This document shows positions 1,234-53,855 of a stretch of 64,000 bases of DNA, in pieces. The translations under genes were made by a program, and so were the position numbers. Numbering within the stretch: position 1 is the stretch's first letter; each line of letters begins with the position of its first letter. The notes under the pieces were generated by a model that saw nothing but the letters and a program-made list of their open reading frames with translations, was not told the DNA's origin and searched no databases. The stretch lies in sequence record PP761450.1; one strand, given 5' to 3'. The DNA comes from Escherichia phage LHE287.

Positions 1234-1896
1234 TTACACCTCCACCGCGTGAGACTTCAGGAGTTCATCAATCTCTTTCTGTCCCATGTATGAGAACGGG
1301 GTGCGCTGGTAGAACGCCCAGAGTACTAACTGGACAACAGCACGGGAACGGGTTTCGGCCGTCATCACCAGGCCACTGAAATGAGGAGACTCAGCTGTCC
1401 ATTGTATCTCTTCGCCCAGGTCTTGATTACAGGTCACCGAGATGCGGAACTTGTTGCACAGATTGTCGACTTCTTTGTACGCATCGGTAGACACACGAAG
1501 TTGTTCCGCATGCGCCCACGGAGTTGTGACGATTCTTTCACCCATCACTTTATCAGAGATAAACCAATCAATACATTCGGTAAACTCACTAAAATGGTCG
1601 ATACGATAAATGCAGTCTCCCCCTTCCATAGAACGCATGGCATGATAGCGAGCGTCGATTTCGTTGTTGTGCATCGCGTTGAAGTCGATGAACACGCGAC
1701 GCGCCAGCACAACATCTTCTGGTTGAAGTGCCAAGAAATCGTTCAGGCGGCTATAATGGAGGATATTGGAACCGTCGTGGCCACGTGTGCAATATGCGTA
1801 ATAGCTACCGATACGGGCGTGGGCAATATAAGACAACGGGGCGAAGAATAATCCGTCAGGATCAGGACCGACGATAATAGAATAAAGTTTTTCCAT
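1234..1896 (-). CDS. hypothetical protein
   Basis: ORF 1234..1911 trimmed to first ATG (1896); the listed start is TTG. Confidence 0.5.
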   Translation of the reverse strand: MEKLYSIIVGPDPDGLFFAPLSYIAHARIGSYYAYCTRGHDGSNILHYSRLNDFLALQPEDVVLARRVFIDFNAMHNNEIDARYHAMRSMEGGDCIYRIDHFSEFTECIDWFISDKVMGERIVTTPWAHAEQLRVSTDAYKEVDNLCNKFRISVTCNQDLGEEIQWTAESPHFSGLVMTAETRSRAVVQLVLWAFYQRTPFSYMGQKEIDELLKSHAVEV

Positions 1897-1952
1897 GATA
1901 TAGTCACTCAAATGAAAGGGCAGCTTTATGATAAGCCGCCCGAGGTTATTGA

Positions 1953-4622: not shown

Positions 4623-4878
4623 TCAGGATACGAGCGGCGTCGAAAGTTTCCCCGCCCGTGTTCAGCAGCTTGGTCAGATCGTCAAGATATCGGACCGTGC
4701 CAAGATCAGATGACCGCGATATGAACTCCAGCATACCATACAACGCTGTTTGGAATCGGCTGTTATCGATATCGTTCTTTATTACCATCAGGCGCAAGAT
4801 GTTCTCTGACTGAGTATGGCCAACACACGCCTTGTCTCTGATCATCTCCTTGATAGAACTTCTCTCTGATGGTGTCAT
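4582..4878 (-). CDS. hypothetical protein with C-terminal poly-Glu tail
   Basis: 98 aa ending EEEEEEEV, encoded by a (GAA)6 run; ATG with G-rich RBS. Confidence 0.45.
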   Translation of the reverse strand: MTPSERSSIKEMIRDKACVGHTQSENILRLMVIKNDIDNSRFQTALYGMLEFISRSSDLGTVRYLDDLTKLLNTGGETFDAARILIDGGPEEEEEEEV

Positions 4879-5249
4879 AACGTACCCCCGACAGAGATCA
4901 AGAACTCTTCTTGCATGGTCTTGACCGGGTGGTGGTTGCGGGTTTCGAACATGAAGCCCCAGCCACCGTCGGCGACGTTGCCAAAGGTCTTGACGCCAAA
5001 GGACTTCGTCCCGTTGGAGCAGGAATAGATGTCCAGGACGTATGGGCTACCCTGATTGTCGATCCCACGATTCACGTCGTCTGATACGCAGCGCTCAATC
5101 ATCTTCCCGTTCTTATACAGAACGAGGTCTTGGCCATACGCCTTGAAAGCATAAACACCGTTGGTAGACACTCCGGTGATGACAGGAGGGGCGGAAACAG
5201 CAGCAAAGGAAGCGCCCAGCAGGGCAACAGCGAGGATTAACTTTTTCAT
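4875..5249 (-). CDS. secreted protein (signal peptide)
   Basis: Start MKKLILAVALLGASFAAVSA at 5249. Confidence 0.5.
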   Translation of the reverse strand: MKKLILAVALLGASFAAVSAPPVITGVSTNGVYAFKAYGQDLVLYKNGKMIERCVSDDVNRGIDNQGSPYVLDIYSCSNGTKSFGVKTFGNVADGGWGFMFETRNHHPVKTMQEEFLISVGGTL

Positions 5250-5308
5250 GATATAGTCTCTTGGTTTCAAATAGACGGGGTAATCATACCCCGCCCAAAG
5301 TTATAGAA

Positions 5309-5548
5309 TTAACTGATGTGCTTCAGAAGAGCGAAGAGGATCGCGGCCTTGGCCTTTACCTTTCCTACGATGCCTGTTTCGACATCAACTTCTTCAGCAA
5401 CCCACTCTTTTCCCTTCTTGCTGATGATAACGTCACGACGCTGTGCGTAGACTTCTTTGGTCGCATACACACGGCGGAACCCTTTAGCGCGGAGCAATCC
5501 CCAATTGCGATCAATTTCTACTGAGGTTTCTACCATTTTGTTCTTCAT
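5309..5548 (-). CDS. hypothetical protein
   Basis: 79-aa ORF; upstream AAGGTAAG...TTATATC-ATG. Confidence 0.45.
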   Translation of the reverse strand: MKNKMVETSVEIDRNWGLLRAKGFRRVYATKEVYAQRRDVIISKKGKEWVAEEVDVETGIVGKVKAKAAILFALLKHIS

Positions 5549-5599
5549 GATATAATCTTACCTTTCAACCCGGTGAACCCATCGTTCGCCAGTTATTGA

Positions 5600-5629
5600 A
5601 TAATACGCATTTACCTTATAGAAGTAAAC
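5600..5629 (-). promoter_or_regulatory. candidate sigma70/T4-early-type promoter (GTTTAC-N18-TATTAT)
   Basis: Minus-strand -35 GTTTAC (5624-5629) and -10 TATTAT (5600-5605), upstream of gene starting at 5548. Confidence 0.4.
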
Positions 5630-5640
5630 CCCTAAAAGTA

Positions 5641-5667
5641 AAAATCCCCAACAAACGTTGGGGATTT
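5641..5667 (-). terminator. rho-independent terminator
   Basis: ccccaac/gttgggg stem followed on the minus strand by TTTTTACTTTT; downstream of gene 5682..5906. Confidence 0.55.
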
Positions 5668-5681
5668 AATAAAAGTTATGC

Positions 5682-5906
5682 CTATTTAATTTCTCGGCTT
5701 GAATTTTCTAGTTCTAATTTTCTTATAGCGGAAATTCTGCCTTCATCAGTTGCGGGAAACTCCCAAACAGCACGACGCCCATTGTTGGTATCACAACTTG
5801 CCAGCCAGCAGAAATTAGAGGGGTCCTTAAACAAGACCAACTTCGGATTTCCTAAATTGATGAGGTTAAACGGGGTGAGGTCAACAACACATGATATAGC
5901 AGACAT
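5682..5906 (-). CDS. hypothetical small protein flanked by the two repeat copies
   Basis: 74-aa ORF, ATG with AGAAGG RBS. Confidence 0.4.
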   Translation of the reverse strand: MSAISCVVDLTPFNLINLGNPKLVLFKDPSNFCWLASCDTNNGRRAVWEFPATDEGRISAIRKLELENSSREIK

Positions 5907-5951
5907 AACATATACCTTCTTTCAATGAACGGGAACGCCCCGATCTATGAA

Positions 5952-6020
5952 TTCAATAATACGCATTTACCTTATAGAAGTAAACCCCTAAAAGTAAAAA
6001 TCCCCAACGTTTGTTGGGGA
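5952..6020. repeat. Direct repeat copy 2
   Basis: Same core as 5596..5667; the hairpin is present with its loop reverse-complemented. Confidence 0.7.
5956..5985 (-). promoter_or_regulatory. candidate sigma70/T4-early-type promoter (GTTTAC-N18-TATTAT)
   Basis: Same element as 5600..5629, upstream of gene starting at 5906. Confidence 0.4.
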
Positions 6021-6022
6021 CT
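5996..6022 (-). terminator. rho-independent terminator
   Basis: ccccaac/gttgggg stem plus U-run directly after the stop of the ACP-like gene. Confidence 0.5.
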
Positions 6023-6026
6023 TCTG

Positions 6027-6350
6027 TTATTTGCGCAGGGCAACCACGAGTTCAGCGAGTTCACCCATGGTCGGGTCGTCGCCTTTACTACCTAGCCACC
6101 CGTCGTCGATTTCGACCTGAAACTCTTCTTCGAGGTCCATTACAATTTCGATAGCGTCCAGTTCATCACCGCCGAGGTCTTTCTTGGTACGGAGGCCAGC
6201 CAGCTTGTCCAGGGCGTCCTCGTTCTGAGATGCCACGTCGTCCAGCAATTTGCGCTTGTCATCGTCACGCCACAGATCCATATTCAGATTGTCAGTGGCG
6301 TACTGAGCCAGATGACGCATGACTTCAACATATGTTGGCTTACTGCTCAT
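6027..6350 (-). CDS. acyl-carrier-protein-like protein (Ser-to-Glu at the phosphopantetheine site)
   Basis: KDLGGDELDAIEIVMDLEEEFQVEIDD aligns with E. coli ACP [27 protein letters not shown] (from memory); the conserved Ser is Glu here. Confidence 0.6.
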   Translation of the reverse strand: MSSKPTYVEVMRHLAQYATDNLNMDLWRDDDKRKLLDDVASQNEDALDKLAGLRTKKDLGGDELDAIEIVMDLEEEFQVEIDDGWLGSKGDDPTMGELAELVVALRK

Positions 6351-6369
6351 GCTACTTCTCCCAAAGAAA

Positions 6370-6385
6370 GGCGGGTTGCCCCGCC
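6370..6385 (-). terminator. GNRA-loop hairpin plus U-run after the vWA gene
   Basis: ggcggg-ttgc-cccgcc; minus strand shows a GCAA loop followed by TTTCTTT. Confidence 0.45.
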
Positions 6386-6392
6386 CGTTGGA

Positions 6393-8594
6393 TTAGATTT
6401 TGATTTCTTTCTCTGTCAGTTCGGCAGTGACCTTGTACTTCACGCCATCCACTTCAACTTCCATGGTGGACTCTTCCAGGTCGAGGTCGGTGAACCAGCC
6501 GTGGCCAGCAACGATACCATACACCACTTTAGACAGTGTCTTGTTCAGGGCACGGACTTCGGTGATGGCCGCCTTGGCAGCAGCGTCGATCCAGTTTTCG
6601 ATCAGCTGTTTCTGTAAGGCTTCAGGCACGGCAGTGATCATAGGAGACTTCACGAATGCTTCGTACTCTTTCAGAGCATTGGCGATGAACAAGTCACCAG
6701 CATTGAGTTTCTTGTTCTCTGCGATCTTCTTCTGTACTGCCGCGATGCTCGGTAGTGAAGACGCCCCGGCGATCTTCACGTTCAGCTCACGGCTCATGTA
6801 GAAGTCGGTAGACTCTTTGGTCTCAGTCTTCGGTGAGAAGCCGTAATCGCGGATGCCGTAGGAGGACAGGAACTCGGCCGCCTCAGCGCCGTACTGTACT
6901 GCCAGGCCTTTGGCGTTACCCTTACCAACCAGGGCGTCTCGATAGAACTTCAGCACCTTCTGCTTGCCTTTCAGGGCTTCCAGACGGACATTATCCGCAA
7001 AGAACTGAGCAGCACTGATGTTCTTGACCATGGCGCGGTTGACCAGCGGTACGCTTTCCAGGTTCAGGACAAACACTTCCGGGCCACCAAACACGTGGAC
7101 GCCCATTTCGATCAGCTTCTGTACAACTTCGATATCAGCCTTGAACGGCAGAGTCTTCACGTTAATGATACCGTCTTTGACGATGGTGTAGTTGCGCCAC
7201 TGGAAAGTATCCAGTTCTTCAGGCAGGCCAAACTTCTTCTGTGCGAATTCAGGCACAGCCACAGTACCGTGTTGAATTGTACGCACACTGATGTTCGGGC
7301 GCTCGGAGTTATAGACCAAATCACTGATTGGCACAACACCCAGATCGTTGGTAGGTTCGAACGTCGGGTTCCACTCTTCGTGTTCTGCCAGCTTGAGAGC
7401 CAGGGCTTTACGCTCTTCTTTGGACTGAGCATTCGCGATCTGTTCTGCCAGCTTGTCTTCGGTGTCGTCGGTTTTCTGCACAGTACCGCGCCCGATACTC
7501 TTATAGGAGAACATCGGATGCTTGGTAGCAACAGGTACACCAGCTTCAGCCAGGTACGTCAGCACATCAACGACGGTGGTCGCATCTTCAGCCGGAACCA
7601 GGTCATAGTCAATACCGTCAACGCCGCGCAGCTGGTCGTCAACAATCGCCTGAACCAGATCGTTCTTGATGTTGGAGTAGTCCTGCTTGGTGAAGCAGTT
7701 GCTGTACTGTTTGATGAAGCGAACGTCGCCCGTCTTCTTCAGCGCAGCCCAAACCAGATCTGCGTCCATAGTGTGTACACCGTAGAACGCCAGCACGTAT
7801 GCCGCCTGGATGTCCGTCAGGCTATCCATCTGGTCGATCATGTTAGGGTTTACAACCCACAGCTTGGTGACGCTCTCAGGGATGCTCACATAGCCGACCG
7901 GGTGAGAGTCATCGTCCTGCACCGCCAGTACTGTTGCCACACCGTTTTCGACGTAGATGGCATGGGTGTAGATGACTGGGACATCAACTTTCACCTTCGG
8001 CACTGATGACTTCAGCACGTTTTCCAGTTCGGTCTGGTATTCGGTCTGACCTTCGGCAAACACATGAGTCGCGCCAGAGCGCTCGGACATCAGAGCCAGC
8101 AGTTCGCGGTTACAGTGCCAGCCGTATTCGATGAAAGTAATGTTATCGAACGCAGAAGGCAAGGTTTCGGCGACGGCCAGGATTTCGTTTGAGCGCCAGC
8201 AGTTGTCATAACCATCGGTCATGAATGCCAGGTTGTTGACGTAACCAGGTTTCTTCAGGTCACGCGCAGTATCCATCGCCAGTTTCAACGGCTCAACGAA
8301 GCCAGTACATCCGGACGGTTGCAGGAAGCGATCGATCAGTTTGTTCAGCTCGCTCAGGTCAGACGCAGCACTAACCTGGCGGCCAGCGAACACAGTACCA
8401 AAGTCGCCTTTGGAGGAGAAATACAGAACGCTCACAGTGTCTTCCGGTTTCACCAGGGAAGGCAGGTTCTCCTTCAGATGCTTACGGACTTCAGGGAGCG
8501 CACGGTACATAGAGCCGGAAATGTCTACAACGATTACATGGTTGGACGGGGTAGCAGTCGCAACCGCATTCTTAAATTCTAATGATTCAATCAT
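6393..8594 (-). CDS. von Willebrand factor A (vWA) domain protein, 733 aa
   Basis: N-terminal MIDAS-like VVVDISGSM...TDG; start taken at MIESLEF (8594) with AAGGCGAAGAG RBS. Confidence 0.7.
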   Translation of the reverse strand: MIESLEFKNAVATATPSNHVIVVDISGSMYRALPEVRKHLKENLPSLVKPEDTVSVLYFSSKGDFGTVFAGRQVSAASDLSELNKLIDRFLQPSGCTGFVEPLKLAMDTARDLKKPGYVNNLAFMTDGYDNCWRSNEILAVAETLPSAFDNITFIEYGWHCNRELLALMSERSGATHVFAEGQTEYQTELENVLKSSVPKVKVDVPVIYTHAIYVENGVATVLAVQDDDSHPVGYVSIPESVTKLWVVNPNMIDQMDSLTDIQAAYVLAFYGVHTMDADLVWAALKKTGDVRFIKQYSNCFTKQDYSNIKNDLVQAIVDDQLRGVDGIDYDLVPAEDATTVVDVLTYLAEAGVPVATKHPMFSYKSIGRGTVQKTDDTEDKLAEQIANAQSKEERKALALKLAEHEEWNPTFEPTNDLGVVPISDLVYNSERPNISVRTIQHGTVAVPEFAQKKFGLPEELDTFQWRNYTIVKDGIINVKTLPFKADIEVVQKLIEMGVHVFGGPEVFVLNLESVPLVNRAMVKNISAAQFFADNVRLEALKGKQKVLKFYRDALVGKGNAKGLAVQYGAEAAEFLSSYGIRDYGFSPKTETKESTDFYMSRELNVKIAGASSLPSIAAVQKKIAENKKLNAGDLFIANALKEYEAFVKSPMITAVPEALQKQLIENWIDAAAKAAITEVRALNKTLSKVVYGIVAGHGWFTDLDLEESTMEVEVDGVKYKVTAELTEKEIKI

Positions 8595-8802
8595 TGTTCT
8601 CTTCGCCTTGTGCGTAAGGGTTAAGTTCAGACTCATCAGCGGCTTCGATGCGCGTCTTTACAGAGTCCAGCATATTGTTGATAAATTCACGAGACTGCTC
8701 CAGCTGAGCCAAGAGCACATCCTTTGGAGCATAGTTCTGAATGCAAGCCGGAATACTTTCAGACGTCGCCTTCAGGTCGGTAAAACATTCTTTCAGTATC
8801 AT
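8587..8802 (-). CDS. hypothetical protein
   Basis: 71-aa ORF ending 8 nt inside the vWA start. Confidence 0.4.
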   Translation of the reverse strand: MILKECFTDLKATSESIPACIQNYAPKDVLLAQLEQSREFINNMLDSVKTRIEAADESELNPYAQGEENND

Positions 8803-8880
8803 TTGATCTCACTTAACAGAGACGACGCCCTGTTGGGATTTAATAGCGGTCTTCACAGGCATCAGGTTTCCCTCAAAACA

Positions 8881-8896
8881 GGGGAGTTGCCTCCCC
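8881..8896 (-). terminator. GNRA-loop hairpin after the NAMPT-family gene
   Basis: ggggag-ttgc-ctcccc; followed on the minus strand by GTTTT. Confidence 0.45.
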
Positions 8897-8904
8897 TTCG
8901 GTTA

Positions 8905-10569
8905 TCAGATTTGTGAGGCCAGTTCTGTCACCAGAGGAGCGGCACGAACACGCGCATCTTCCAGTGTTTGAGTATTGAAGAACTCGCCATCACGATACAC
9001 CAGCTGGTGCTGGTTGTCGGCGTCTTGCACCTGATCAAAGGTGATACCGTCAACCAACACTAGTTTACCCTGAGAGTCTTTAATGACTTTAAGGAAACCA
9101 CGCGCAGACTTTTTAGTCCCGCCTTTATCGGTCTTCGGCTCTTTGAAGATCTCACGGAATTCACCGTTCACTTTACCAGCCGTGGCTTTCACTGCTGTGC
9201 CAGTACTGTCACGGGTGTTCATCTGGTAGGTGTAGGAACCGATACCGAACACCACGTTGATGGAAGCGAAGTTCCGGTCAGCCAGACGGCTAAAGATCTG
9301 GTCTTCACGCGCCAGGGTGATAGAATCACCGTAGATCAGGCCGATGTGCTCATCCAACAGGAAGTGCCCAGTTTCAGTCTGGGTGCCACCAAAGATCTCC
9401 CACAGGCGCTGGATAGAGCCGACCGCTTCTGAACGGCTGATGATATTACGGTCATCTACCATCAGAGAGTTGATCGTGCCTTCGCCTGTGATCAGGTGAT
9501 AGGTGTTCGTCTCTTCGATGTGGATAACTTCGGTGCTGCTAGACACGCCGCTGATGTTCAGCGTAGCGCGGTCTTTGAACCCCTCGATGCGGTAGCCGCC
9601 AACGATGTGTACAGGGTCGCCCGAGTCGGGGCGAATCACGACTTTACCATTGCGCGCCATGATAATGTCTTTCAGGCGAGGCAGATAGTCGTCGATGACC
9701 TGCCAGTAATCCCACGCATCAGACACGATGCTGACGATGCCATCAGGATACACGTCCTGCACCAGGCGGCGGAAGGTTTCGAATTCGCCATCCTTCGTGC
9801 CCATACACATCACCGCATGTTCCGTTGCGGCAACCGACCCAGCAACGACATAGTCTTCGTCGATGTCTGCGCCATAATACTCTTCTACGAAGTCCAGGGC
9901 AGGGTTGGTATCGGTGCCTTTGAAGAACACCAGATGACCGGAACCGGAAGACGCGGCATCATGCCACCCGCTCATACCACGAAAGGAGAAGTCGTGGCCT
10001 TGGTAGTCGATGAACCAATGGTCCGGTGATACTCCCGTAGCGAGGGCAGCTTTCACCATCAGTGCCTTGTAATGCAAAGCTATGGTGGCGTTCGTCATCG
10101 GCTTCCAGATCTCAGAGCTGAACACAGTCTCCAGATAGTTGGTCAGCCAGTAGAACTCCGGCAGGGTATTGAACATCACATACACCGGAACGCCATACGG
10201 GCACATGGTACCTTCAGGCAGCGCGCGGACTTCGATAGGCAGGTAGCCGAGGTCATGCAGGGCTTCAATATGCTCTGTGCCGACGCGGCCTGGACCCAGG
10301 ACTTTGTTCATGCGACGGGCATACTTCTTCAGCACCTTGGCCTTCGGGCGCTGGAAGAATGCTTCGTCAAACAGTTCGTGGAACCAGGTCATGAAGCCCT
10401 GGATGCCCCAGACCACCACGCCGTTCTTCGGCAGGTGAGAGTTGAACAGTTTGTTAGAGCGCGGAGTTCCGTTGGAGAACACCAGCTCACTGCCTTCAGG
10501 GAACTGATAGATGTGCCCCGATTTGTAGAAGTCGATCGCATGGATTGGGTCTAAGTGGCGCATGCTCAT
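8905..10569 (-). CDS. nicotinamide phosphoribosyltransferase family protein (NadV/Namat-like)
   Basis: 554 aa with NAMPT-like sequence throughout (DFYKSGH..., GSVAATEHAVM, IRPDSGDP); stop/start overlap with upstream gene. Confidence 0.85.
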   Translation of the reverse strand: MSMRHLDPIHAIDFYKSGHIYQFPEGSELVFSNGTPRSNKLFNSHLPKNGVVVWGIQGFMTWFHELFDEAFFQRPKAKVLKKYARRMNKVLGPGRVGTEHIEALHDLGYLPIEVRALPEGTMCPYGVPVYVMFNTLPEFYWLTNYLETVFSSEIWKPMTNATIALHYKALMVKAALATGVSPDHWFIDYQGHDFSFRGMSGWHDAASSGSGHLVFFKGTDTNPALDFVEEYYGADIDEDYVVAGSVAATEHAVMCMGTKDGEFETFRRLVQDVYPDGIVSIVSDAWDYWQVIDDYLPRLKDIIMARNGKVVIRPDSGDPVHIVGGYRIEGFKDRATLNISGVSSSTEVIHIEETNTYHLITGEGTINSLMVDDRNIISRSEAVGSIQRLWEIFGGTQTETGHFLLDEHIGLIYGDSITLAREDQIFSRLADRNFASINVVFGIGSYTYQMNTRDSTGTAVKATAGKVNGEFREIFKEPKTDKGGTKKSARGFLKVIKDSQGKLVLVDGITFDQVQDADNQHQLVYRDGEFFNTQTLEDARVRAAPLVTELASQI

Positions 10570-11420
10570 TTTACACGTCCTGTATTTTCAGTTTTGAAAG
10601 GGAGCCCGTCGGCGGTGATGTTCTCCCACCAGACGGTGTCGGCATACACAGCATCATAGATCCCGTCGAAAACAGAGAGACCTTTGCTGAAGATGCCATG
10701 GGTAACGAAGAGCGTCATGTGCTTAGGCTTGTGCTTCTGAAGCTCTTTGCCTAACTCAACGAACGTGCGCCCACCGTCGCAGATATCATCGACCACCACC
10801 AGATAGCGGTCTTTGATCAGTTCAGGGTTTGTAACACTCACCCCAATGATCTCACCAGTCTTGGTGTCACGGTTCTTGTGACCGTAGACAACAGGAACAC
10901 CGTCCAACGACAGGCTGAGGGCTTCGGTCTTCTTAGCCGCGCCGCCGTCAGGGGCTACCAACACAGCGTTGTTCCCACGGATGAACCAGCCCAGATACTG
11001 ACGCACGATGTAATCTTGCGGGACAACATGGACGTTGTTGATCAGAGAAGACACAACATGGCTGTGAGGATCTTTGATCGCCACGCGGTCAAAGTTCATG
11101 CTATTGATGAACTCAGCTGCCCACTTCACAGACAGAGGCTCACCGAAGTCACAATGGCGGTCCTGGCGAGCATACGGGAAGTAAGGGATATACGCATGGA
11201 ATGTCGTCAGACGGTCCACGTTACCCAGACCACGAACGGCGTTTACCAGAAGCGCCAGCTCAATGAAGTCAGCCGATGATTTGATGTGAGCATCAATCGC
11301 CACGTTCTGAACGTGGCCGATAGGGATACCAGACTTTTGAATCTTGATATGTTCCTCACCACCTGGGAAGGTGAAGTGTTTGTAGAACACATCTTGGTCG
11401 TTCAATTTCAAACGAAACAT
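10566..11420 (-). CDS. ribose-phosphate pyrophosphokinase family protein (Prs/Adps-like)
   Basis: 284 aa with type I PRTase/PRPP motif VVVDDICDGGRTF; 4-nt overlap with the NAMPT-family gene. Confidence 0.75.
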   Translation of the reverse strand: MFRLKLNDQDVFYKHFTFPGGEEHIKIQKSGIPIGHVQNVAIDAHIKSSADFIELALLVNAVRGLGNVDRLTTFHAYIPYFPYARQDRHCDFGEPLSVKWAAEFINSMNFDRVAIKDPHSHVVSSLINNVHVVPQDYIVRQYLGWFIRGNNAVLVAPDGGAAKKTEALSLSLDGVPVVYGHKNRDTKTGEIIGVSVTNPELIKDRYLVVVDDICDGGRTFVELGKELQKHKPKHMTLFVTHGIFSKGLSVFDGIYDAVYADTVWWENITADGLPFKTENTGRVK

Positions 11421-26783: not shown

Positions 26784-27227
26784 TCAGTTGTTAACGCGGA
26801 ATGCCGCCGGATACCCACCTGGATGCCCTTCTCCGGTCACGAAGACCTCGTACCGGGCACCTTTAACCAAACCAGGCAAATTGCCTGAGTCAAGCAGATA
26901 GCGGATTTTATCCATAGTCTCCATCCAGGACTTAGCAGGTTCGGCCTCGGCCTCCCCACGGTTGATTTTGATCACACCCTCTGAATAATACTTCCCATTG
27001 TCCTTCATGTAGTACAGCTTGACATCGATAAACTGTGGGGATGGAACTTCTGTCCAACCCTCATCGTTCAAATCCTGGCGATCATTGTCGAAACTCTGAA
27101 AATCAACATCACCGCATGCCAGGCGATAATCTTTGAATTTACGGAAACCTTCCACCTTGTCCCCAACGGAGCTACGGAAGAACTGTTTCTTGGCGGGACT
27201 AATGAAAATGAAATTCTTGTTACACAT
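26784..27227 (-). CDS. hypothetical protein
   Basis: Start MCNKNF (27227) with AAGGAAGG RBS and CTATATC spacer. Confidence 0.5.
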   Translation of the reverse strand: MCNKNFIFISPAKKQFFRSSVGDKVEGFRKFKDYRLACGDVDFQSFDNDRQDLNDEGWTEVPSPQFIDVKLYYMKDNGKYYSEGVIKINRGEAEAEPAKSWMETMDKIRYLLDSGNLPGLVKGARYEVFVTGEGHPGGYPAAFRVNN

Positions 27228-27534
27228 GATATAGATCCTTCCTTTCAAAGAATGTTGTGTTCGTCGATATCGGACTGCGTTGCAATCTCCCAGCGGACGA
27301 TGTTCTCGGTTGTGACGAAATCACGGTTCAGGTGAGAGGCTGGCACATACACCATCGTGTCTCGACCATGAAGTAACACTGCTCATTGTTACAAGAATCA
27401 ACGTAAACCTCGATGAGGCACACCTCGGCAACACCGGCTTTCGGCTTCTTCACAGTCTTTTTCAAGTACATGGTACAACCCTCGGATAGTAGACGGGGCA
27501 ATAATACCTCTCACCCCGTTATTGAAATGTTCTT

Positions 27535-29064: not shown

Positions 29065-29086
29065 AAACCCCGCCGAAGCGGGGTTT
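29065..29086 (-). terminator. UUCG-loop terminator after major capsid gene
   Basis: aaaccccgcc-gaag-gcggggttt; minus strand shows cUUCGg loop followed by TTTTAT. Confidence 0.6.
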
Positions 29087-30526: not shown

Positions 30527-31378
30527 TTAGCCGTTGATGCCGAAGCGACGATTATAGTCGGCCAACTGACGCTTGATAGATTCTTTCAGCTCTTTGTCTG
30601 TTTCATCTTCATCGTCATCTTCATCGCCTTCTTTCTTAGGCTTTTTGCCTTCGGCTTTAACATCTTTGTTGTCGTCATCGCCGTCTTTACCGCCGACTTT
30701 GTCCTGGAAGTCATCGTCATCGTCATCGCCTTCTTTCTTCACGGACTTACCTTCTACCAGGTTGCGGAAGGTGTGTACGCGGGAAGCGAATTCGCTTTCG
30801 GTGGTGAACTGCACAGCTTCCAGCAGATTGACAACCGTTGCTTTCTTGGTGTCGACCATACCTTCACAGATACGGGCGATCACAGAGTCACGCAGAGTCG
30901 CATTCGCGGCTTCTTTGATTTGACGGTTTTCGCTTTCGGCAATCGCAGCACGTCGTTCTGCTTCGGTCAGGCGGGCAGTCAGCGCAGCGATCTGGCCGTT
31001 TTCGTCGGTGGCAAAGTTGATACCAGCTTCTTTCAGAACACCAGTCAGGCCAGTCAGCAGATTTTCAGCCGCTTCACGTTTGATCTGAGCATCGATTGCA
31101 GGAGCGTTCTTGTTAGCCCACTCTTCTACAACAGCATTCAGGAAGCCATCGACTTTGGTCGCGATTTCCATCAAGTGAGACTCTTTCAGCTGAGCAATCT
31201 CAGCCTGATGAGCTTCAACCAGACGCAGGCGCTCAATATTGGCAGCGTTTTCGGTTTCTTGAATAGCGGTCAGGCGAGCGGCTTCTACTTTAGATTCCAG
31301 CAGACCAGACACTTTATCCAGGAAGTCGGTGCTGAGGCCGTTAACACCCTCAAACAGTTTTTGCAATTCAGGTTTCAT
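30527..31378 (-). CDS. gp22: prohead scaffold protein (gp22-like)
   Basis: Acidic, coiled-coil-like, Asp/Glu-rich C-terminus; between gp21 and gp23 as in T4; late motif upstream. Confidence 0.6.
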   Translation of the reverse strand: MKPELQKLFEGVNGLSTDFLDKVSGLLESKVEAARLTAIQETENAANIERLRLVEAHQAEIAQLKESHLMEIATKVDGFLNAVVEEWANKNAPAIDAQIKREAAENLLTGLTGVLKEAGINFATDENGQIAALTARLTEAERRAAIAESENRQIKEAANATLRDSVIARICEGMVDTKKATVVNLLEAVQFTTESEFASRVHTFRNLVEGKSVKKEGDDDDDDFQDKVGGKDGDDDNKDVKAEGKKPKKEGDEDDDEDETDKELKESIKRQLADYNRRFGING

Positions 31379-35311: not shown

Positions 35312-35330
35312 AACCCCGCCTCAGCGGGGT
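35312..35330 (-). terminator. hairpin terminator
   Basis: aaccccgcc-tca-gcggggt followed on the minus strand by TTTAGTTT. Confidence 0.5.
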
Positions 35331-35336
35331 AAACTA

Positions 35337-35693
35337 CTATTTGCGAATGCTAACCTGAGCATAATACACATGATAATCACCATGGGCACGGAAGCTGGTG
35401 AGGTGGAATGTGACGAGGTGGCTCCCGAAAGCTACAACTTTGGTATCTGGGGAGCATAAATCATTAGCCAGTTCACCCAGAACCTTACCACAAAACTCCT
35501 CAACGATAGCGTTAAATCTGTCAATGTGTGGACTGGTCACCGTCATTGGACCAACATCTGCACAGTAGATCCCTTTTATCATCTTTCCCTGGCTGTCGCG
35601 TACTGGCTTTGCAGGCTGGTAAGGATTGATGCGGCGTTTCAGGTTACAGAGGCCGATTTCTTTCAGGATAGCGTTAATTTCAGTCTTGGTCAT
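35337..35693 (-). CDS. hypothetical protein (accessory gene between sheath and tube genes)
   Basis: Start MTKTEIN (35693) with AAGGAA-CTATATC-ATG; sigma70-like promoter upstream. Confidence 0.45.
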   Translation of the reverse strand: MTKTEINAILKEIGLCNLKRRINPYQPAKPVRDSQGKMIKGIYCADVGPMTVTSPHIDRFNAIVEEFCGKVLGELANDLCSPDTKVVAFGSHLVTFHLTSFRAHGDYHVYYAQVSIRK

Positions 35694-35740
35694 GATATAG
35701 TTCCTTCGTTTCAAGTTGGTGTCGTACTGCTTATGTTTAG

Positions 35741-35768: not shown

Positions 35769-35802
35769 AGTAATTCAATAAAATAATCTGGGAAAAATTT
35801 AA

Positions 35803-35821
35803 AACCCCGCCGAAGCGGGGT
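35803..35821 (-). terminator. UUCG-loop terminator
   Basis: accccgcc-gaag-gcggggt; U-run on the minus strand. Confidence 0.55.
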
Positions 35822-35825
35822 CTTG

Positions 35826-49480: not shown

Positions 49481-49483
49481 AAC

Positions 49484-49503
49484 AACCCCGCCGATGCGGG
49501 GTT
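49484..49503 (-). terminator. hairpin terminator after tail spike gene
   Basis: aaccccgcc-gat-gcggggtt followed on the minus strand by TTGTTTTA. Confidence 0.5.
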
Positions 49504-49508
49504 GCAAA

Positions 49509-51482
49509 TCAAACAACCTGAATTATTCCTTGCACATTAGTGATGTTTGTGCCAGCAATGGCAATAGTCATCCTGTTGTTCTCATCATATGTGATAGTCA
49601 TGGGTTTAGCGCCAGATGGTTGCATTAGACCAAAGCTACCAAATAACGTACCACATGCATTTATTGGAGTTCCATTATCAGTAACCAGCAGGTTAATGTG
49701 AACTATATTATATGGGCTACGTACCACCTGAGTGGTAATGGTGGCTCTTGCCGGGTCGCTGGTGTTGACAGTACAGAACGGAACGCTATTACTTGGCAGT
49801 ACTGTGCTAATAGTTTGCCCCGTATATCTCTTAGGGGCTGTACTGCTTTGGCGTAAATTTCGCGCAATAACAGCCCCTGATGAATCCGTGAGTGTTTCAA
49901 TGCGCTTAATCTCCACTCCTTGTCCAACGAGATAGTTACCAGGTATCGAACTGCCATTCTGAATGGTGCTTACGTAATCCTCAATCTCAATGATGAATGT
50001 CTTCTCACCACTACGACCAGTGACTGCAAAATCACCACGCCAGTTAGTTCCTGATGGATGTGCTCCATCCTTAAAGTTGCATGATTTATCAATCCCACCT
50101 GATAAAACAGTTGACGCTTCCAGATGAATCATTTGCCAATGTAAATATGAATTTCTGATATAAAGCCTTTCAACTATTGCTGAAGGATCAACTCGTATCC
50201 CTATTGTGTTTTTCTCAAAGTACCAGTTATGTAATTCAAGGTTTTGAATATTTCCTGAATCAGAACCATAAATATCCACACCACGGACACCATTTTCAGC
50301 TGTGCAAGAATCAAAACAATCTGCTGAGCTAAGACCGGTTATCTTCCAGTTAGTATGGAAACCAGACGCTACGCATTTACGAACGCCCATTGCCTGGATA
50401 TTTGATTCAATCTGGAATGCTATAGACCCATCAGCGCCTGCCGGAGGACTCATTGCGGAGATTTCCTCAATGGTTCCATAGAAGCTGTCTTTAACTATAA
50501 CTGGGTAACGCGTCGCAGTGATGCGAGTGTCCTTGATTGCACTCCCATAAATCATCTGGTACATCTTGTAAGCAGAACCGGCAAATCTGATGCGCCCACC
50601 ACCAATACGCATATCAGGAACAAGGCCAATTGAGCCAACTGAACTAGCAGGAACTGACCAGTTTGATTTAAGTTCCCCTGCATCCCAATAAGCTGACTCA
50701 AAAATAGTGTTTGTGCCAACTACGCCTTGGCTACCATTCCCTTCTATGACTGCGTGGTTTAAATCTATTGAAACTCCACCTGGAACCAGAATTGTCCCCA
50801 TTATTTTAACTACAGATTTTCTAGGCAGCTTTAACTTGATCATCGAGCCGTTTGCTTCTGTTATTGCACTTTGTATTGCGGCAGTGTCATCAGCAACACC
50901 ATTGCATTTAGCACCCCATCCTCTGATGTCACCTTCATCTCGCCATCTTGCAATCTGTAGTGCTGGGTATAGAGATGCACCATTAGGATTTGATATTTGA
51001 TTTCTTAATACAATATCTCCAACACTAACCCACTTACCTAAACCAACGCCACCAGTACTCTCTGGGGTTGAGCCAGCAGAAACGATTTTAGGTAATTCAC
51101 CATCCCAGCGATACTTACCATCAGCAAAGACAACCAGTTCATTCTTAACATTAACGGTTACTCCGGTAGAGAATGACCCAGGTAAAGTCACATACTCTTC
51201 ACGAGTGACAGCTAATTCACCCAAGTCCACATTACCAGCAGAGTGAACTAATACCCCAGCAGGGCTGAGACTTACAGCAGTAACCCCTGAGTCAATACTG
51301 GTTGGTAATGAGTAAGCACGCTGGGTAGTCTTATCATAAATAACTTTGTAACCACCCAAGTCCACACCCACAGCAAAGTAGACTACTTCATTTTGCTTGA
51401 CACCAAACTTACGGGCAATGGCTTGTTTGTTGGTAAGAATACCAGTGGAGCCTTTACCACCTTGTGAGAATAACTCGTTCAT
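49509..51482 (-). CDS. tail spike protein (right-handed beta-helix type)
   Basis: 657 aa; N-terminal module shared with the 1183-aa spike; Asn/Gly-rich repetitive C-terminal domain. Confidence 0.65.
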   Translation of the reverse strand: MNELFSQGGKGSTGILTNKQAIARKFGVKQNEVVYFAVGVDLGGYKVIYDKTTQRAYSLPTSIDSGVTAVSLSPAGVLVHSAGNVDLGELAVTREEYVTLPGSFSTGVTVNVKNELVVFADGKYRWDGELPKIVSAGSTPESTGGVGLGKWVSVGDIVLRNQISNPNGASLYPALQIARWRDEGDIRGWGAKCNGVADDTAAIQSAITEANGSMIKLKLPRKSVVKIMGTILVPGGVSIDLNHAVIEGNGSQGVVGTNTIFESAYWDAGELKSNWSVPASSVGSIGLVPDMRIGGGRIRFAGSAYKMYQMIYGSAIKDTRITATRYPVIVKDSFYGTIEEISAMSPPAGADGSIAFQIESNIQAMGVRKCVASGFHTNWKITGLSSADCFDSCTAENGVRGVDIYGSDSGNIQNLELHNWYFEKNTIGIRVDPSAIVERLYIRNSYLHWQMIHLEASTVLSGGIDKSCNFKDGAHPSGTNWRGDFAVTGRSGEKTFIIEIEDYVSTIQNGSSIPGNYLVGQGVEIKRIETLTDSSGAVIARNLRQSSTAPKRYTGQTISTVLPSNSVPFCTVNTSDPARATITTQVVRSPYNIVHINLLVTDNGTPINACGTLFGSFGLMQPSGAKPMTITYDENNRMTIAIAGTNITNVQGIIQVV

Positions 51483-53835: not shown

Positions 53836-53855
53836 AACCCCGCCAAAGCGGGGTT
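53836..53855 (-). terminator. hairpin terminator
   Basis: aaccccgcc-aaa-gcggggtt. Confidence 0.5.

What the first reader, a model, noticed from the sequence alone, without database searches (positions are those of the whole stretch)
5596..6022. Duplicated terminator-plus-promoter cassette bracketing a 74-aa gene, with the hairpin loop flipped between copies
Two roughly 70-bp direct repeats each carry a minus-strand hairpin terminator (ccccaac/gttgggg) followed by a T4-early-like promoter (GTTTAC-N18-TATTAT). The stems are identical but the 4-nt loop is reverse-complemented (aaac versus gttt) while the flanks stay direct. This looks like a duplicated regulatory cassette that captured a small gene.
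Basis: seen in the sequence. Interest (0 to 1): 0.5.

Follow-up and report, generated by a model that had tools for sequence, protein, structure and literature searches.

The report
Duplicated terminator-promoter cassette flanking optional gene
In this Vi1-like (Ackermannviridae) phage, a small optional gene is bracketed by two copies of a terminator-plus-early-promoter cassette that serve as recombination points for gaining or losing the gene, and the flipped hairpin loop is a recurrent small inversion; both are known kinds of thing, seen here in a phage family where they appear undescribed.

Summary
A 73-nt direct repeat (5595-5667 and 5951-6023, 67/73 identical) brackets a real 74-aa gene (phrog_22629). 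Four of the six differences are the hairpin loop, exactly reverse-complemented.

Each copy carries a predicted intrinsic terminator hairpin with a U-tract, followed by TTTACT-N17-TATTAT. That matches the T4/PST "PeSL" early-promoter consensus.

Across 29 copies from relatives, the stem, U-tract and both hexamers are essentially invariant. The spacer varies in sequence but not in length.

The cassette occurs in 219 phage records, almost always once and only at this site. The gene is in only 31 records. Genomes lacking it are exactly one repeat period (356 bp) shorter and keep a single, sometimes chimeric, cassette. The gene module is 97.4% identical to a Kuttervirus whose flanks are about 73-78% identical. 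A near-identical backbone contig lacks the gene.

The loop orientation is polymorphic family-wide (about 86 versus 66 records) and has flipped repeatedly. A second gene-flanking hairpin repeat 350 bp away also flips in relatives. Of 112 other hairpins with orthologs, none flips.

Best reading: a PeSL-like recombination cassette, plus neutral loop inversion by replication template switching. Transcription was not tested.

The parts
5951..6023 (-). Upstream copy of the 73-nt cassette. It lies immediately after the acyl-carrier-protein gene and drives the 74-aa gene.
   Evidence: Direct repeat D1. The core has 2 matches in the window against 0.00 expected.
5996..6025 (-). Predicted intrinsic terminator hairpin of the upstream copy. 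RNA: AGAAGUCCCCAAC-AAAC-GUUGGGGAUUUUU, loop AAAC in the RNA sense, with the U-tract running on to 5986.
   Evidence: RNA fold -18.5 kcal/mol, z -5.3. It starts 7 nt after the ACP stop codon.
5956..5985 (-). Predicted early promoter of the 74-aa gene: -35 GTTTAC(T) at 5985-5979, 17/18-nt spacer, -10 TATTAT at 5961-5956.
   Evidence: Promoter scan. Exact match to TTTACW-N17-TAYWAT, with 2 matches in the window against 0.01 expected. The hexamers are invariant in 29 copies while the spacer varies.
5907..5955 (-). 5' untranslated region of the 74-aa gene, with a small hairpin (CGGGGCGTTCCCG) and a Shine-Dalgarno region (GAAAGAAGG).
   Evidence: Read from the sequence. Conserved among carriers.
5682..5906 (-). 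74-aa cargo gene of unknown function, an optional accessory gene.
   Evidence: phrog_22629, E 1.7e-44. No Pfam hit. Found in 31 phage records at 74-97% identity, always at this site. AlphaFold model pLDDT 90.2, four strands plus a helix, with no informative fold match.
5595..5667 (-). Downstream copy of the 73-nt cassette. It terminates the 74-aa gene and drives the 79-aa gene.
   Evidence: Direct repeat D1.
5642..5667 (-). Predicted intrinsic terminator hairpin of the downstream copy: a perfect 26-nt palindrome apart from its loop (AAAUCCCCAAC-GUUU-GUUGGGGAUUU). The loop is the reverse complement of the other copy's. The U-tract runs on to 5630.
   Evidence: Terminator scan, 11 pairs. RNA fold -16.3 kcal/mol, z -4.0. 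It is flipped relative to KE31 and SW16-7 at the orthologous position.
5600..5629 (-). Predicted early promoter of the 79-aa gene: -35 GTTTAC(T) at 5629-5623, -10 TATTAT at 5605-5600. Its spacer is identical to the upstream copy's, whereas most relatives carry a different spacer here.
   Evidence: The spacer has been homogenised in the window, KE31 and Marshall only.
6027..6350 (-). Acyl-carrier-protein gene, the conserved upstream flank.
   Evidence: phrog_4154, E 2.6e-57, and PF00550.
5309..5548 (-). 79-aa gene (phrog_804), the conserved downstream flank.
   Evidence: Present in every relative examined.
5274..5295 (-). Second hairpin element (GGCGGGGUA-UGAU-UACCCCGUC in the RNA sense), between the 79-aa and 131-aa genes. 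It is single here. In relatives it is duplicated as a 50-nt repeat round an extra 168-aa gene, with its loop flipped in some.

Best explanation
What it is. The element is a composite intergenic regulatory cassette of the kind called PeSL (promoter-early stem-loop) in T4-like phages. It consists of an intrinsic terminator hairpin with a U-tract, which also serves as the A/T-rich stretch upstream of the promoter. This is followed directly by a sigma-70-type early promoter (TTTACT-N17-TATTAT), a 5' untranslated region and a ribosome-binding site. The cassette is the normal junction between the acyl-carrier-protein gene and the 79-aa gene in Vi1-like phages. In this genome it occurs twice, on either side of an optional 74-aa gene, so that gene is its own insulated transcription unit.

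How the gene comes and goes. The two 73-nt copies are direct repeats, so homologous recombination between them deletes exactly one period (356 bp) and leaves one cassette, sometimes a chimeric one. Recombination in or near the cassettes during co-infection moves the gene-plus-cassette module between phage lineages, including between subfamilies.

The loop. The reverse-complemented loop is a separate, small and probably neutral event. The hairpin is a long perfect palindrome, and a replication template switch within it (the quasi-palindrome mechanism) inverts the 4-nt spacer while leaving the arms and flanks untouched. This has happened repeatedly in the family.

Shown versus inferred. Shown here: the repeat, the conservation footprint, the exact-period presence/absence polymorphism, the mosaic identity and the recurrent flips. 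Inferred: promoter and terminator activity, the recombination pathway and the template-switch mechanism.
For: Architecture:
- Hairpin plus U-tract plus promoter in both copies.
- The T4/PST PeSL promoter consensus quoted in PMC4122927 matches exactly and only at these two sites in 64 kb, with 0.01 matches expected.
- In 29 copies from 19 genomes the stem, U-tract, GGGGTTTACT and TATTAT are invariant or nearly so. The 18-nt spacer has at least 5 versions of constant length.
- The stem shows compensated changes: CCCCAAT/ATTGGGG in phage 241 and PS5.
- The LIMEstone1 record annotates the same hexamers as a putative early promoter.

Recombination module:
- The cassette is in 219 phage records, nearly always once per genome. 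The gene is in only 31.
- Non-carriers are shorter by exactly the repeat period and keep a single cassette.
- Both predicted chimeric products exist. The A221/AV101/LIMEstone type has the downstream-type spacer. The Marshall type has the upstream-type spacer joined to the 79-aa gene's flank.
- Mosaic identity: contig L008 is 97.5-100% identical in the backbone genes but lacks the gene. KE31 is 72.6% identical in the vWA gene and 78% in the ACP 5' half, yet 96.9% in the ACP 3' half and 97.4% in the gene module.
- Two further gene-sized indels are bounded by duplicated intergenic elements of 50 and about 52 nt.
- A distant 68-aa homolog in an unrelated contig also lies between repeated promoter cassettes.

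Loop flip:
- Exact reverse complement with flanks direct.
- Every up/down combination except GTTT/GTTT with both stems intact occurs among carriers: AAAC/GTTT, GTTT/AAAC and AAAC/AAAC. Det7 is GTTT/GTTT but with one stem mismatch. Both states also occur in single-copy genomes.
- Family census: about 86 versus 66 records.
- The window and KE31 differ by about 8 substitutions in 570 nt plus the en-bloc flip.
- A second hairpin also flips.
- Predicted RNA stability is the same for both loops.
- Loop inversion by template switching is a documented class of mutation (PMC8794818; PMC8604942).
Against: - No transcript-end or expression data exist for any Ackermannviridae phage in the searchable literature. 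Promoter and terminator function rest on sequence and conservation only.
- Unlike T4 PeSLs, this cassette sequence is not dispersed. It occurs only at this one locus, and the repeats at the other two indel sites are unrelated in sequence.
- The direction of events is ambiguous. KE31 may be the recipient rather than the donor type, and the window cannot be derived from L008 or the reverse by a single event, because the spacers differ.
- Magnus carries the gene without a second cassette, so the cassette pair is not obligatory for the gene.
- Template switching is inferred. Recombination between the inverted arms, or between the two palindromes, would leave the same product.
Confidence: 0.75

Rival explanations
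1. In-situ tandem duplication. The cassette was duplicated locally in this lineage, by slippage or unequal crossing-over, and a foreign gene was then inserted between the copies.
For: The two copies in the window are unusually alike, including an identical promoter spacer. That is what a recent duplication or a gene conversion would give.
Against: The same gene at the same site, with two cassettes, occurs in several genera with 74-97% protein identity, so the arrangement is old. In most carriers the two spacers differ strongly. The identity mosaic shows exchange of the module between lineages. Magnus has the gene without a second cassette.
Confidence: 0.1
2. The 26-nt palindrome works mainly at the DNA level rather than as an RNA terminator. 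It would be a binding site for a dimeric regulator sitting just upstream of the promoter, or a target for a structure-specific or site-specific recombination enzyme that mobilises the gene.
For: The palindrome is perfect over 11+11 bp. It lies just upstream of the -35 hexamer (hairpin centre roughly 30 nt upstream of it). Its half-sites are invariant while the centre can flip, and the compensated stem change keeps the dyad symmetry. Arbiol et al. left open site-specific recombination for PeSLs, and one RB49 mini-circle crossover mapped within the loop.
Against: A strictly conserved U-tract follows the stem on the coding strand only. The hairpin starts 7-14 nt after a stop codon, and the fold is strongly favourable. 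These are the hallmarks of an intrinsic terminator. No recombinase, invertase or homing-endonuclease domain is encoded nearby. Crossover points inferred from chimeric cassettes fall both before and after the spacer, not at one fixed site.
Confidence: 0.1
3. The loop difference is not an inversion event. It arose either by four independent substitutions or by copying from a differently oriented copy elsewhere (gene conversion).
For: Recombination between the two cassettes can shuffle existing loop states between positions. Pertopsoe and UViG_142553 have near-identical modules with the two loops swapped.
Against: Among 29 copies read directly, the loops are AAAC (19) or GTTT (8), plus two length or stem variants, and no partial intermediates. 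The chance of an exact reverse complement confined to the loop is about 1.7e-7 (own arithmetic). Both states occur in genomes with a single cassette and no other copy anywhere, so conversion cannot create the second state. A second, unrelated hairpin shows the same behaviour.
Confidence: 0.04
4. The repeat is an assembly or sequencing artefact.
For: Several GenBank records begin inside or next to this cassette, which shows that the repeat disturbs assemblies.
Against: At least eight independent genomes from different laboratories carry the same two-copy arrangement with lineage-specific substitutions. The intervening gene is under coding constraint and belongs to a PHROG family.
Confidence: 0.01

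Closest known systems
PeSL (promoter-early stem-loop) mobile regulatory cassettes of T4-like phages (Arbiol et al. 2010, PMC2839356; Comeau et al. 2014, PMC4122927)
   Same: Same composite order: stem-loop terminator, A/T-rich tract, sigma-70-type early promoter, Shine-Dalgarno sequence and start codon. The promoter fits the T4/PST PeSL consensus TTTACW-N17-TAYWAT exactly. The cassettes flank a small gene of unknown function that is present or absent between close relatives, with breakpoints inside the cassette. Chimeric single cassettes remain after loss. The site lies in a locally hypervariable stretch of small genes.
   Different: The host family is Ackermannviridae, not T4-like. I found no paper linking the two. 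This cassette sequence is confined to one locus instead of being a dispersed genome-wide motif family. Mini-circles, promoter activity and terminator activity, all shown experimentally for RB49/phi1, are untested here. Loop inversion was not reported for PeSLs in the passages I read.
Loop (spacer) inversion by replication template switching at inverted repeats. This covers quasi-palindrome mutagenesis, template-switch mutations in rRNA hairpins (PMC8794818), spacer inversion at yeast inverted repeats (PMC8604942), and small hairpin-loop inversions in chloroplast non-coding DNA (the last from my own knowledge, not checked here).
   Same: Exact reverse complement of a short spacer between perfect inverted arms, with loop length kept and flanks untouched. 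It is recurrent and homoplastic on the phylogeny. In the rRNA study too, the typical loop is 4 nt.
   Different: Here both states are common (about 86 vs 66 records) at one orthologous phage terminator, and the loop is fully non-palindromic, so all four bases change. In the rRNA study most inverted loops were partly self-complementary. The setting is a phage intergenic terminator inside a direct repeat.
Intrinsic (Rho-independent) terminators
   Same: G+C-rich stem, short loop, U-tract, position just after a stop codon, and compensated stem changes among relatives.
   Different: The stem is extended by A/U pairs into a 26-nt perfect palindrome, and its U-tract doubles as the upstream A/T-rich element of the next promoter.
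Integron gene cassettes and phage 'morons' (analogy only)
   Same: A single small accessory gene carried as a self-contained unit bounded by repeated sequence. A moron likewise brings its own promoter and terminator.
   Different: No integrase and no attC-type site. Exchange appears to depend on general homologous recombination between regulatory repeats.

Membership tests
PeSL cassettes of T4-like phages | Composite element: stem-loop immediately upstream of a sigma-70-type early promoter, then Shine-Dalgarno sequence and start codon | tested here: met
   hairpin, U-tract, TTTACT-N17-TATTAT, untranslated region and ATG in both copies.
PeSL cassettes of T4-like phages | Promoter fits the published PeSL consensus (TTTACW-N17-TAYWAT for the T4/PST pair) | tested here: met
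   Consensus quoted. Exact matches occur only at 5600-5628 and 5956-5984, with 0.01 expected.
PeSL cassettes of T4-like phages | Cassettes flank small genes of unknown function that are inserted, deleted or replaced between close relatives, with breakpoints in the cassette | tested here: met
   a 356-bp presence/absence polymorphism, chimeric single cassettes and mosaic identity.
PeSL cassettes of T4-like phages | A family of similar motifs repeated at many sites, concentrated in hyperplastic regions | tested here: not met
   This sequence occurs only at this locus, both in the window and in complete genomes. Other sites have the same kind of architecture or duplicated boundary elements, but with unrelated sequences.
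PeSL cassettes of T4-like phages | Promoter and terminator activity demonstrated; mini-circles formed by recombination between neighbouring cassettes | not testable with these tools
   This needs reporter assays and inverse PCR on infected cells, the methods described.
PeSL cassettes of T4-like phages | Host genome is a T4-like myovirus | tested here: not met
   All relatives are Ackermannviridae, from Aglimvirinae, Cvivirinae and Taipeivirus.
Intrinsic terminator | Stable G+C-rich stem-loop followed by a U-tract, downstream of a stop codon, with pairing kept through compensated changes | tested here: met
   -16.3 and -18.5 kcal/mol; U-tract invariant; AAC/GTT changed to AAT/ATT.
Intrinsic terminator | Transcripts end in the U-tract in vivo | not testable with these tools
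   No Ackermannviridae transcript-end data were found.
Template-switch loop inversion | The spacer between perfect inverted arms is replaced by its exact reverse complement, with length kept and flanks unchanged | tested here: met
   using the criteria quoted.
Template-switch loop inversion | Recurrent, phylogenetically scattered occurrence without intermediate states | tested here: met
   Of 29 copies, 27 are AAAC or GTTT. Loop state differs in 0 of 20 genome pairs below 3% flank divergence and in 30 of 73 pairs at 6-12%.
Template-switch loop inversion | Arises during replication by strand or template switching (the mechanism itself) | not testable with these tools
   This would need mutation-accumulation experiments or deep sequencing of clonal stocks.
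Site-specific invertible switch (Hin/Gin/Fim type) | An invertase gene nearby, and an invertible segment of tens to thousands of bp bounded by recombination sites | tested here: not met
   The inverted segment is 4 nt. No recombinase domain occurs in neighbouring genes. Flips are not seen between genomes under 3% divergent at the upstream hairpin.
Homing-endonuclease or transposable-element insertion | The cargo encodes a nuclease or transposase, or the element has terminal inverted repeats with a target-site duplication | tested here: not met
   The 74-aa product has no Pfam domain and no informative fold match. The boundaries are 73-nt direct copies of the resident regulatory junction, not a short target duplication.
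Known RNA families (Rfam) | Match to a curated covariance model | tested here: not met
   Only one sub-threshold chance hit in 4800-6500.

The most novel reading that the evidence does not exclude
The loop orientation is not neutral. On this reading, the long perfect palindrome is kept because it is a two-state heritable switch. Flipping AAAC to GUUU would change terminator read-through or mRNA 3'-end stability. That would alter the dose of the downstream early genes. The near-balanced frequency of the two states across the family (about 86 vs 66 records), and their independent assortment at the two copies, would then reflect selection rather than mutational equilibrium. A milder version is that the palindrome is a structure-prone hot spot that both flips and triggers the recombination that mobilises the gene, through PeSL-type mini-circles operating across Ackermannviridae genera.
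Probability: 0.06. Interest if true: 0.65.

Novelty: new member of a known kind. Interest (0 to 1): 0.38.

Why it matters
The finding extends the PeSL idea from T4-like phages to Ackermannviridae. In that idea, the terminator-promoter junctions that regulate phage genes also serve as the homology patches through which small accessory genes are lost and exchanged. Ackermannviridae are heavily used for biocontrol and engineering, and a 2024 review of the family does not mention promoters, terminators or transcription at all.

Practical uses:
- It predicts two early transcription units and their boundaries.
- It points to natural, tolerated insertion sites with ready-made insulated expression signals for phage engineering.
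- It explains why assemblies break at this locus.

The loop flip is a clean natural example of hairpin-spacer inversion. It would be miscounted as four substitutions in alignments and phylogenies. It also suggests that this palindrome is extruded or folded during replication in vivo.

Tried and rejected
- **Fuzzy regular-expression scan:** it timed out and was replaced by BLAST and exact-stem searches.
- **Public-collection scans with the cassette core:** these gave only 5 viral contigs and 1 metagenome contig. The GenBank phage collection was used for the census instead.
- **Hypothesis that loop flipping is general to hairpins in these phages:** rejected. Among 112 window hairpins with orthologs in AV101, RPN242 or SW16-7, there were 214 unchanged comparisons, 25 point-substituted and 1 flip, and that flip was the cassette itself.
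- **Hypothesis that the flip is a fast phase-variation-like switch:** not supported at the upstream hairpin, where 0 of 20 genome pairs below 3% flank divergence differ.
- **Hypothesis that the cassette is a dispersed genome-wide repeat:** rejected.
- **Function of the 74-aa cargo:** no Pfam hit. It falls only in a PHROG of unknown function. One distant homolog turned up in 1.84 billion representatives, plus spurious repeat-protein hits. The structure model is confident but has no significant match in the PDB or the viral library apart from its own ortholog.
- **Rfam:** nothing.
- **Literature:** no Ackermannviridae transcript map, no paper linking Ackermannviridae and PeSLs, and no paper on terminator-loop inversions in phages.
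- **Simple derivation of the window from the gene-less contig L008, or the reverse:** rejected. L008's single cassette carries a promoter spacer that neither window copy has.
Full report
**1. The observation**

The region was read directly. All genes here lie on the minus strand:
- a vWA-domain protein gene (6393-8636);
- an acyl-carrier-protein (ACP) gene (6027-6350);
- a 74-aa ORF (5682-5906);
- a 79-aa ORF (5309-5548);
- a 131-aa ORF (4875-5270).

The repeat finder reports a two-copy direct repeat of 73 nt at 5595-5667 and 5951-6023, spacing 356, 92% identical. Its 54-nt core matches twice in the 64-kb window and never in 100 shuffles.

The copies differ at six positions. Four are the hairpin loop, AAAC versus GTTT on the + strand, an exact reverse complement. 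The other two are single bases at the repeat edges. By my own arithmetic, six random differences would fill the four loop positions and form the reverse complement with probability about 1.7e-7.

On the coding (minus) strand each copy reads: stem-loop, AUUUUUACUUUU, then GGGGTTTACT, a 17/18-nt spacer, and TATTAT. The hairpins fold at -16.3 and -18.5 kcal/mol (z -4.0 and -5.3). Swapping the loop changes nothing in the predicted energy.

**2. Where the window comes from**

The locus matches 185 records of Vi1-like phages (Ackermannviridae). The closest are the E. coli phages ZQ1, AV101 and A221, of the Aglimvirinae/Agtrevirus type.

**3. Evidence that the cassette is a terminator plus promoter**

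No transcript data were found for this family, so the evidence is comparative. I aligned 29 cassette copies from 19 genomes.
- The stem arms, the U-tract, GGGGTTTACT and TATTAT are invariant or nearly so.
- The spacer between the hexamers occurs in at least five quite different versions, all of the same length. This is the classic footprint of a promoter.
- The stem keeps pairing through a compensated change: AAC/GTT becomes AAT/ATT in phage 241 and PS5.
- The hairpin begins 7 and 14 nt after the stop codons of the ACP gene and the 74-aa gene.
- The promoter fits the consensus published for T4/PST PeSLs, TTTACW-N17-TAYWAT. That pattern matches only these two sites in the window, with 0.01 expected.
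- The LIMEstone1 GenBank record annotates the same hexamers as a putative early promoter.
- No Rfam family matches.

**4. The gene is optional and the repeat marks its boundaries**

The cassette is present in 219 phage records, nearly always once per genome and always at the ACP/79-aa junction. The 74-aa gene is present in only 31 records. It is always at this site, and it is spread over Kuttervirus, Agtrevirus-like, Taipeivirus and a Yersinia phage at 74-97% protein identity.

Non-carriers are shorter by exactly one repeat period and keep one cassette. Both chimeras expected from recombination between the copies exist:
- A221, AV101, RPN242, L008 and LIMEstone1 have the downstream-type spacer.
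- Marshall has the upstream-type spacer fused to the 79-aa gene's leader.

In the window, and in KE31, the downstream copy carries the upstream-type spacer. The two copies have therefore been homogenised by conversion.

Magnus (Taipeivirus) has the gene fused into the operon with no second cassette. Other relatives have different small genes at the same junction: L009 and phage 241.

**5. Exchange between lineages**

Segment identities to the window are mosaic.

| Relative | vWA 3' end | ACP | 74-aa module | 79-aa gene | 131-aa gene |
|---|---|---|---|---|---|
| L008 (uncultivated contig) | 99.3% | 98.1% | absent | 97.5% | 100% |
| KE31 (Kuttervirus) | 72.6% | 78% in the 5' half, 96.9% in the 3' half | 97.4% | 92.5% | no match |
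| ZQ1 / SW16-7 | 97.4% / 92.6% | 96.6% / 99.1% | 94.1% / 94.1% | 96.7% / 90.8% | 98.7% / 93.2% |

ZQ1 and SW16-7 belong to the same clade as the window, yet their module is less similar to the window's than KE31's is.

So a segment running from mid-ACP through both cassettes has moved between subfamilies. The direction is not resolved, and KE31 may be the recipient. The window and L008 cannot be interconverted by one event, because L008's single cassette has a spacer that neither window copy has.

Recombination between Kuttervirus and Agtrevirus is documented independently for tail-spike genes.

**6. The loop flip**

Read in the RNA sense, the upstream/downstream loops in carriers are:

| Genome | Upstream / downstream loop |
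|---|---|
| Window, UViG_142553 | AAAC / GTTT |
| Pertopsoe, CAU_YEP3 | GTTT / AAAC |
| ZQ1, KE31, SW16-7, CECAV_050 | AAAC / AAAC |
| Det7 | GTTT / GTTT |

Single-cassette genomes have either state. LIMEstone1, AV101, A221, RPN242 and L008 have AAAC. Marshall and a maane-like contig have GTTT.

Of the 29 copies, 19 are AAAC and 8 are GTTT. Two are length or stem variants. Vi01 and phage 241 have AAACC. PS5 has ATTT with a compensated stem. No partial intermediates were seen.

For a family-wide census I used two 43-nt queries that reach full length only with one loop orientation. This gave about 86 records of the AAAC type and 66 of the GTTT type. These counts include the minor variants.

The window and KE31 differ by about eight substitutions across 570 nt of the module plus the en-bloc flip of the downstream loop. 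At the upstream hairpin, the loop state differs in:
- 0 of 20 genome pairs with flanks under 3% divergent;
- 2 of 6 pairs at 3-6%;
- 30 of 73 pairs at 6-12%;
- 33 of 54 pairs above 12%.

The flip is therefore a recurrent one-step mutation that saturates at moderate divergence. It is not a rapid switch.

It is also not a general property of hairpins in this genome. Among 112 perfect window hairpins with orthologs in AV101, RPN242 or SW16-7, there were 214 unchanged comparisons, 25 point-substituted and one flip, which was the cassette itself.

A second case does exist 350 bp away. The hairpin GGCGGGGTA-TGAT-TACCCCGCC is single in the window at 5274-5295. In AV101, ZQ1 and others it is duplicated as a 50-nt direct repeat round an extra 168-aa gene, which some records annotate as an RNA polymerase ADP-ribosylase. 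Its loop is inverted in ZQ1 and UViG_142553 relative to AV101 and CECAV_050.

Both flipping hairpins have long perfect arms (9-11 bp) and loops with no special stability. The window's other strong terminators carry UUCG tetraloops. Inversion of those would be selected against (my inference).

Inversion of the spacer between perfect inverted arms by a replication template switch is a documented class of mutation, typically with 4-nt loops (PMC8794818; PMC8604942). That is the most economical explanation here, but it is inferred, not shown.

**7. Generality of repeat-bounded indels**

I aligned the window with about 64 kb from each of three relatives. Besides the 73-nt and 50-nt cases, a third gene-sized indel has a duplicated intergenic element of about 52 nt at its boundaries. 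The element lies at window 27480-27531, and RPN242 and SW16-7 have an extra 66-aa gene there.

The only distant homolog of the 74-aa protein is a 68-aa protein at 48% identity. It lies in an unrelated contig between 60-nt direct repeats that contain GCTTTACT...TATAAT and a leader hairpin.

The theme of a small early gene bounded by duplicated regulatory sequence therefore recurs. The repeat sequences differ from site to site.

**8. The cargo**

The 74-aa protein belongs to phrog_22629, of unknown function, and has no Pfam domain. It gives a confident model (pLDDT 90.2): a four-stranded sheet plus a C-terminal helix. The model has no significant structural neighbour other than its Magnus ortholog. 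Its function remains unknown.

**9. Comparison with what is known**

The closest known system is the PeSL of T4-like phages (PMC2839356, PMC4122927). Shared features are the composite order, the promoter consensus, the A/T-rich tract, the association with optional small genes, and breakpoints inside the cassette. Differences are:
- the host family;
- this sequence is confined to one locus rather than forming a dispersed motif family, a defining feature that was tested and not met;
- there is no experimental proof of promoter, terminator or mini-circle activity.

I therefore describe it as working like a PeSL, not as a member of the T4 PeSL family. No paper in the searchable library links Ackermannviridae with PeSLs. 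None describes loop inversions in phage terminators.

**10. Verdict**

The flipped loop is a recurrent, probably neutral, template-switch inversion.

Both components are known kinds of thing, seen here in a family where they appear undescribed. Interest is moderate to low (0.38).

Noticed in passing
window 5274-5295 (junction of the 79-aa and 131-aa genes, 5271-5308): A second hairpin element is single in the window. In AV101, ZQ1, KE31, Det7 and CECAV_050 it is duplicated as a 50-nt direct repeat (spacing 559) round an extra 168-aa gene, annotated in some records as an RNA polymerase ADP-ribosylase. Limestoneviruses carry denV at the same junction. The hairpin loop is inverted in ZQ1 and UViG_142553.
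   Followed up: partly
window 27480-27531: An intergenic element of about 52 nt (TTTCAATAACGGGGTGAGAGGTATTATTGCCCCGTCTAC...) is single here but duplicated round an extra 66-aa gene in RPN242 and SW16-7. This is a third gene-sized indel bounded by duplicated intergenic sequence.
   Followed up: partly
window 29065-29086, 35313-35330, 35801-35824, 49482-49505, 53836-53855: A family of five terminator-like hairpins, CCCCGC-TTCG-GCGGGG (UUCG-type tetraloops on the minus strand). The one at 35801-35824 is followed by a perfect TTTACT-N16-TATAAT, another terminator-plus-promoter junction.
   Followed up: no
window 1888-1917, 5241-5270, 5541-5558, 27219-27248, 35685-35714: A recurrent motif around minus-strand start codons (TTGAAA ... 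GA.CTATATCATG). It may be a shared translation-initiation region or possibly a phage-specific promoter element.
   Followed up: no
window 5549-5594 and 5907-5955: Both cassette promoters are followed by a leader hairpin. The 79-aa gene's leader stem (CTGGCGAAC...GTTCACCGG) is replaced by a different but still pairing sequence in phage 241, PS5 and Vi01 (CTGGCTAAC...GTTGGCTAG). This suggests a conserved 5'-end stem-loop on the mRNA.
   Followed up: no
GenBank records SenALZ1, selz, SenASZ3 and SeTs-2: Several deposited genomes begin inside this cassette (nt 1-58) or just beside the 74-aa gene (nt 34-284). Assemblers probably broke, or were opened, at the repeat.
   Followed up: no
OR844942.1 'Enterococcus phage Efm 3-10' and one 'Pseudomonas' record: Records labelled as phages of unrelated hosts carry this Ackermannviridae cassette. 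They are probably mislabelled or contaminated entries.
   Followed up: no
window 51002-51301 and 55953-56252: A 300-nt direct repeat at 75% identity inside the tail-spike region, probably the conserved N-terminal modules of paralogous tail-spike genes. Relatives differ by multi-kb replacements here.
   Followed up: no
window 30597-30740: A short-period repeat of TCATCG/TCTTCA units on the + strand, which would encode an acidic Asp/Glu-rich stretch on the minus strand.
   Followed up: no
window 8856-11275, compared with RPN242: The nicotinamide phosphoribosyltransferase and ribose-phosphate pyrophosphokinase genes present in the window, AV101 and SW16-7 are replaced by about 116 bp and a small gene in RPN242.
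   Followed up: no
locus L025 113-689 (Logan contig ERR12726407_61671): Three 60-nt direct repeats (GCTTTACT...TATAAT plus a leader hairpin) precede successive small genes, including the only distant homolog of the 74-aa protein. This is a repeated-promoter arrangement in an unidentified phage.
   Followed up: partly
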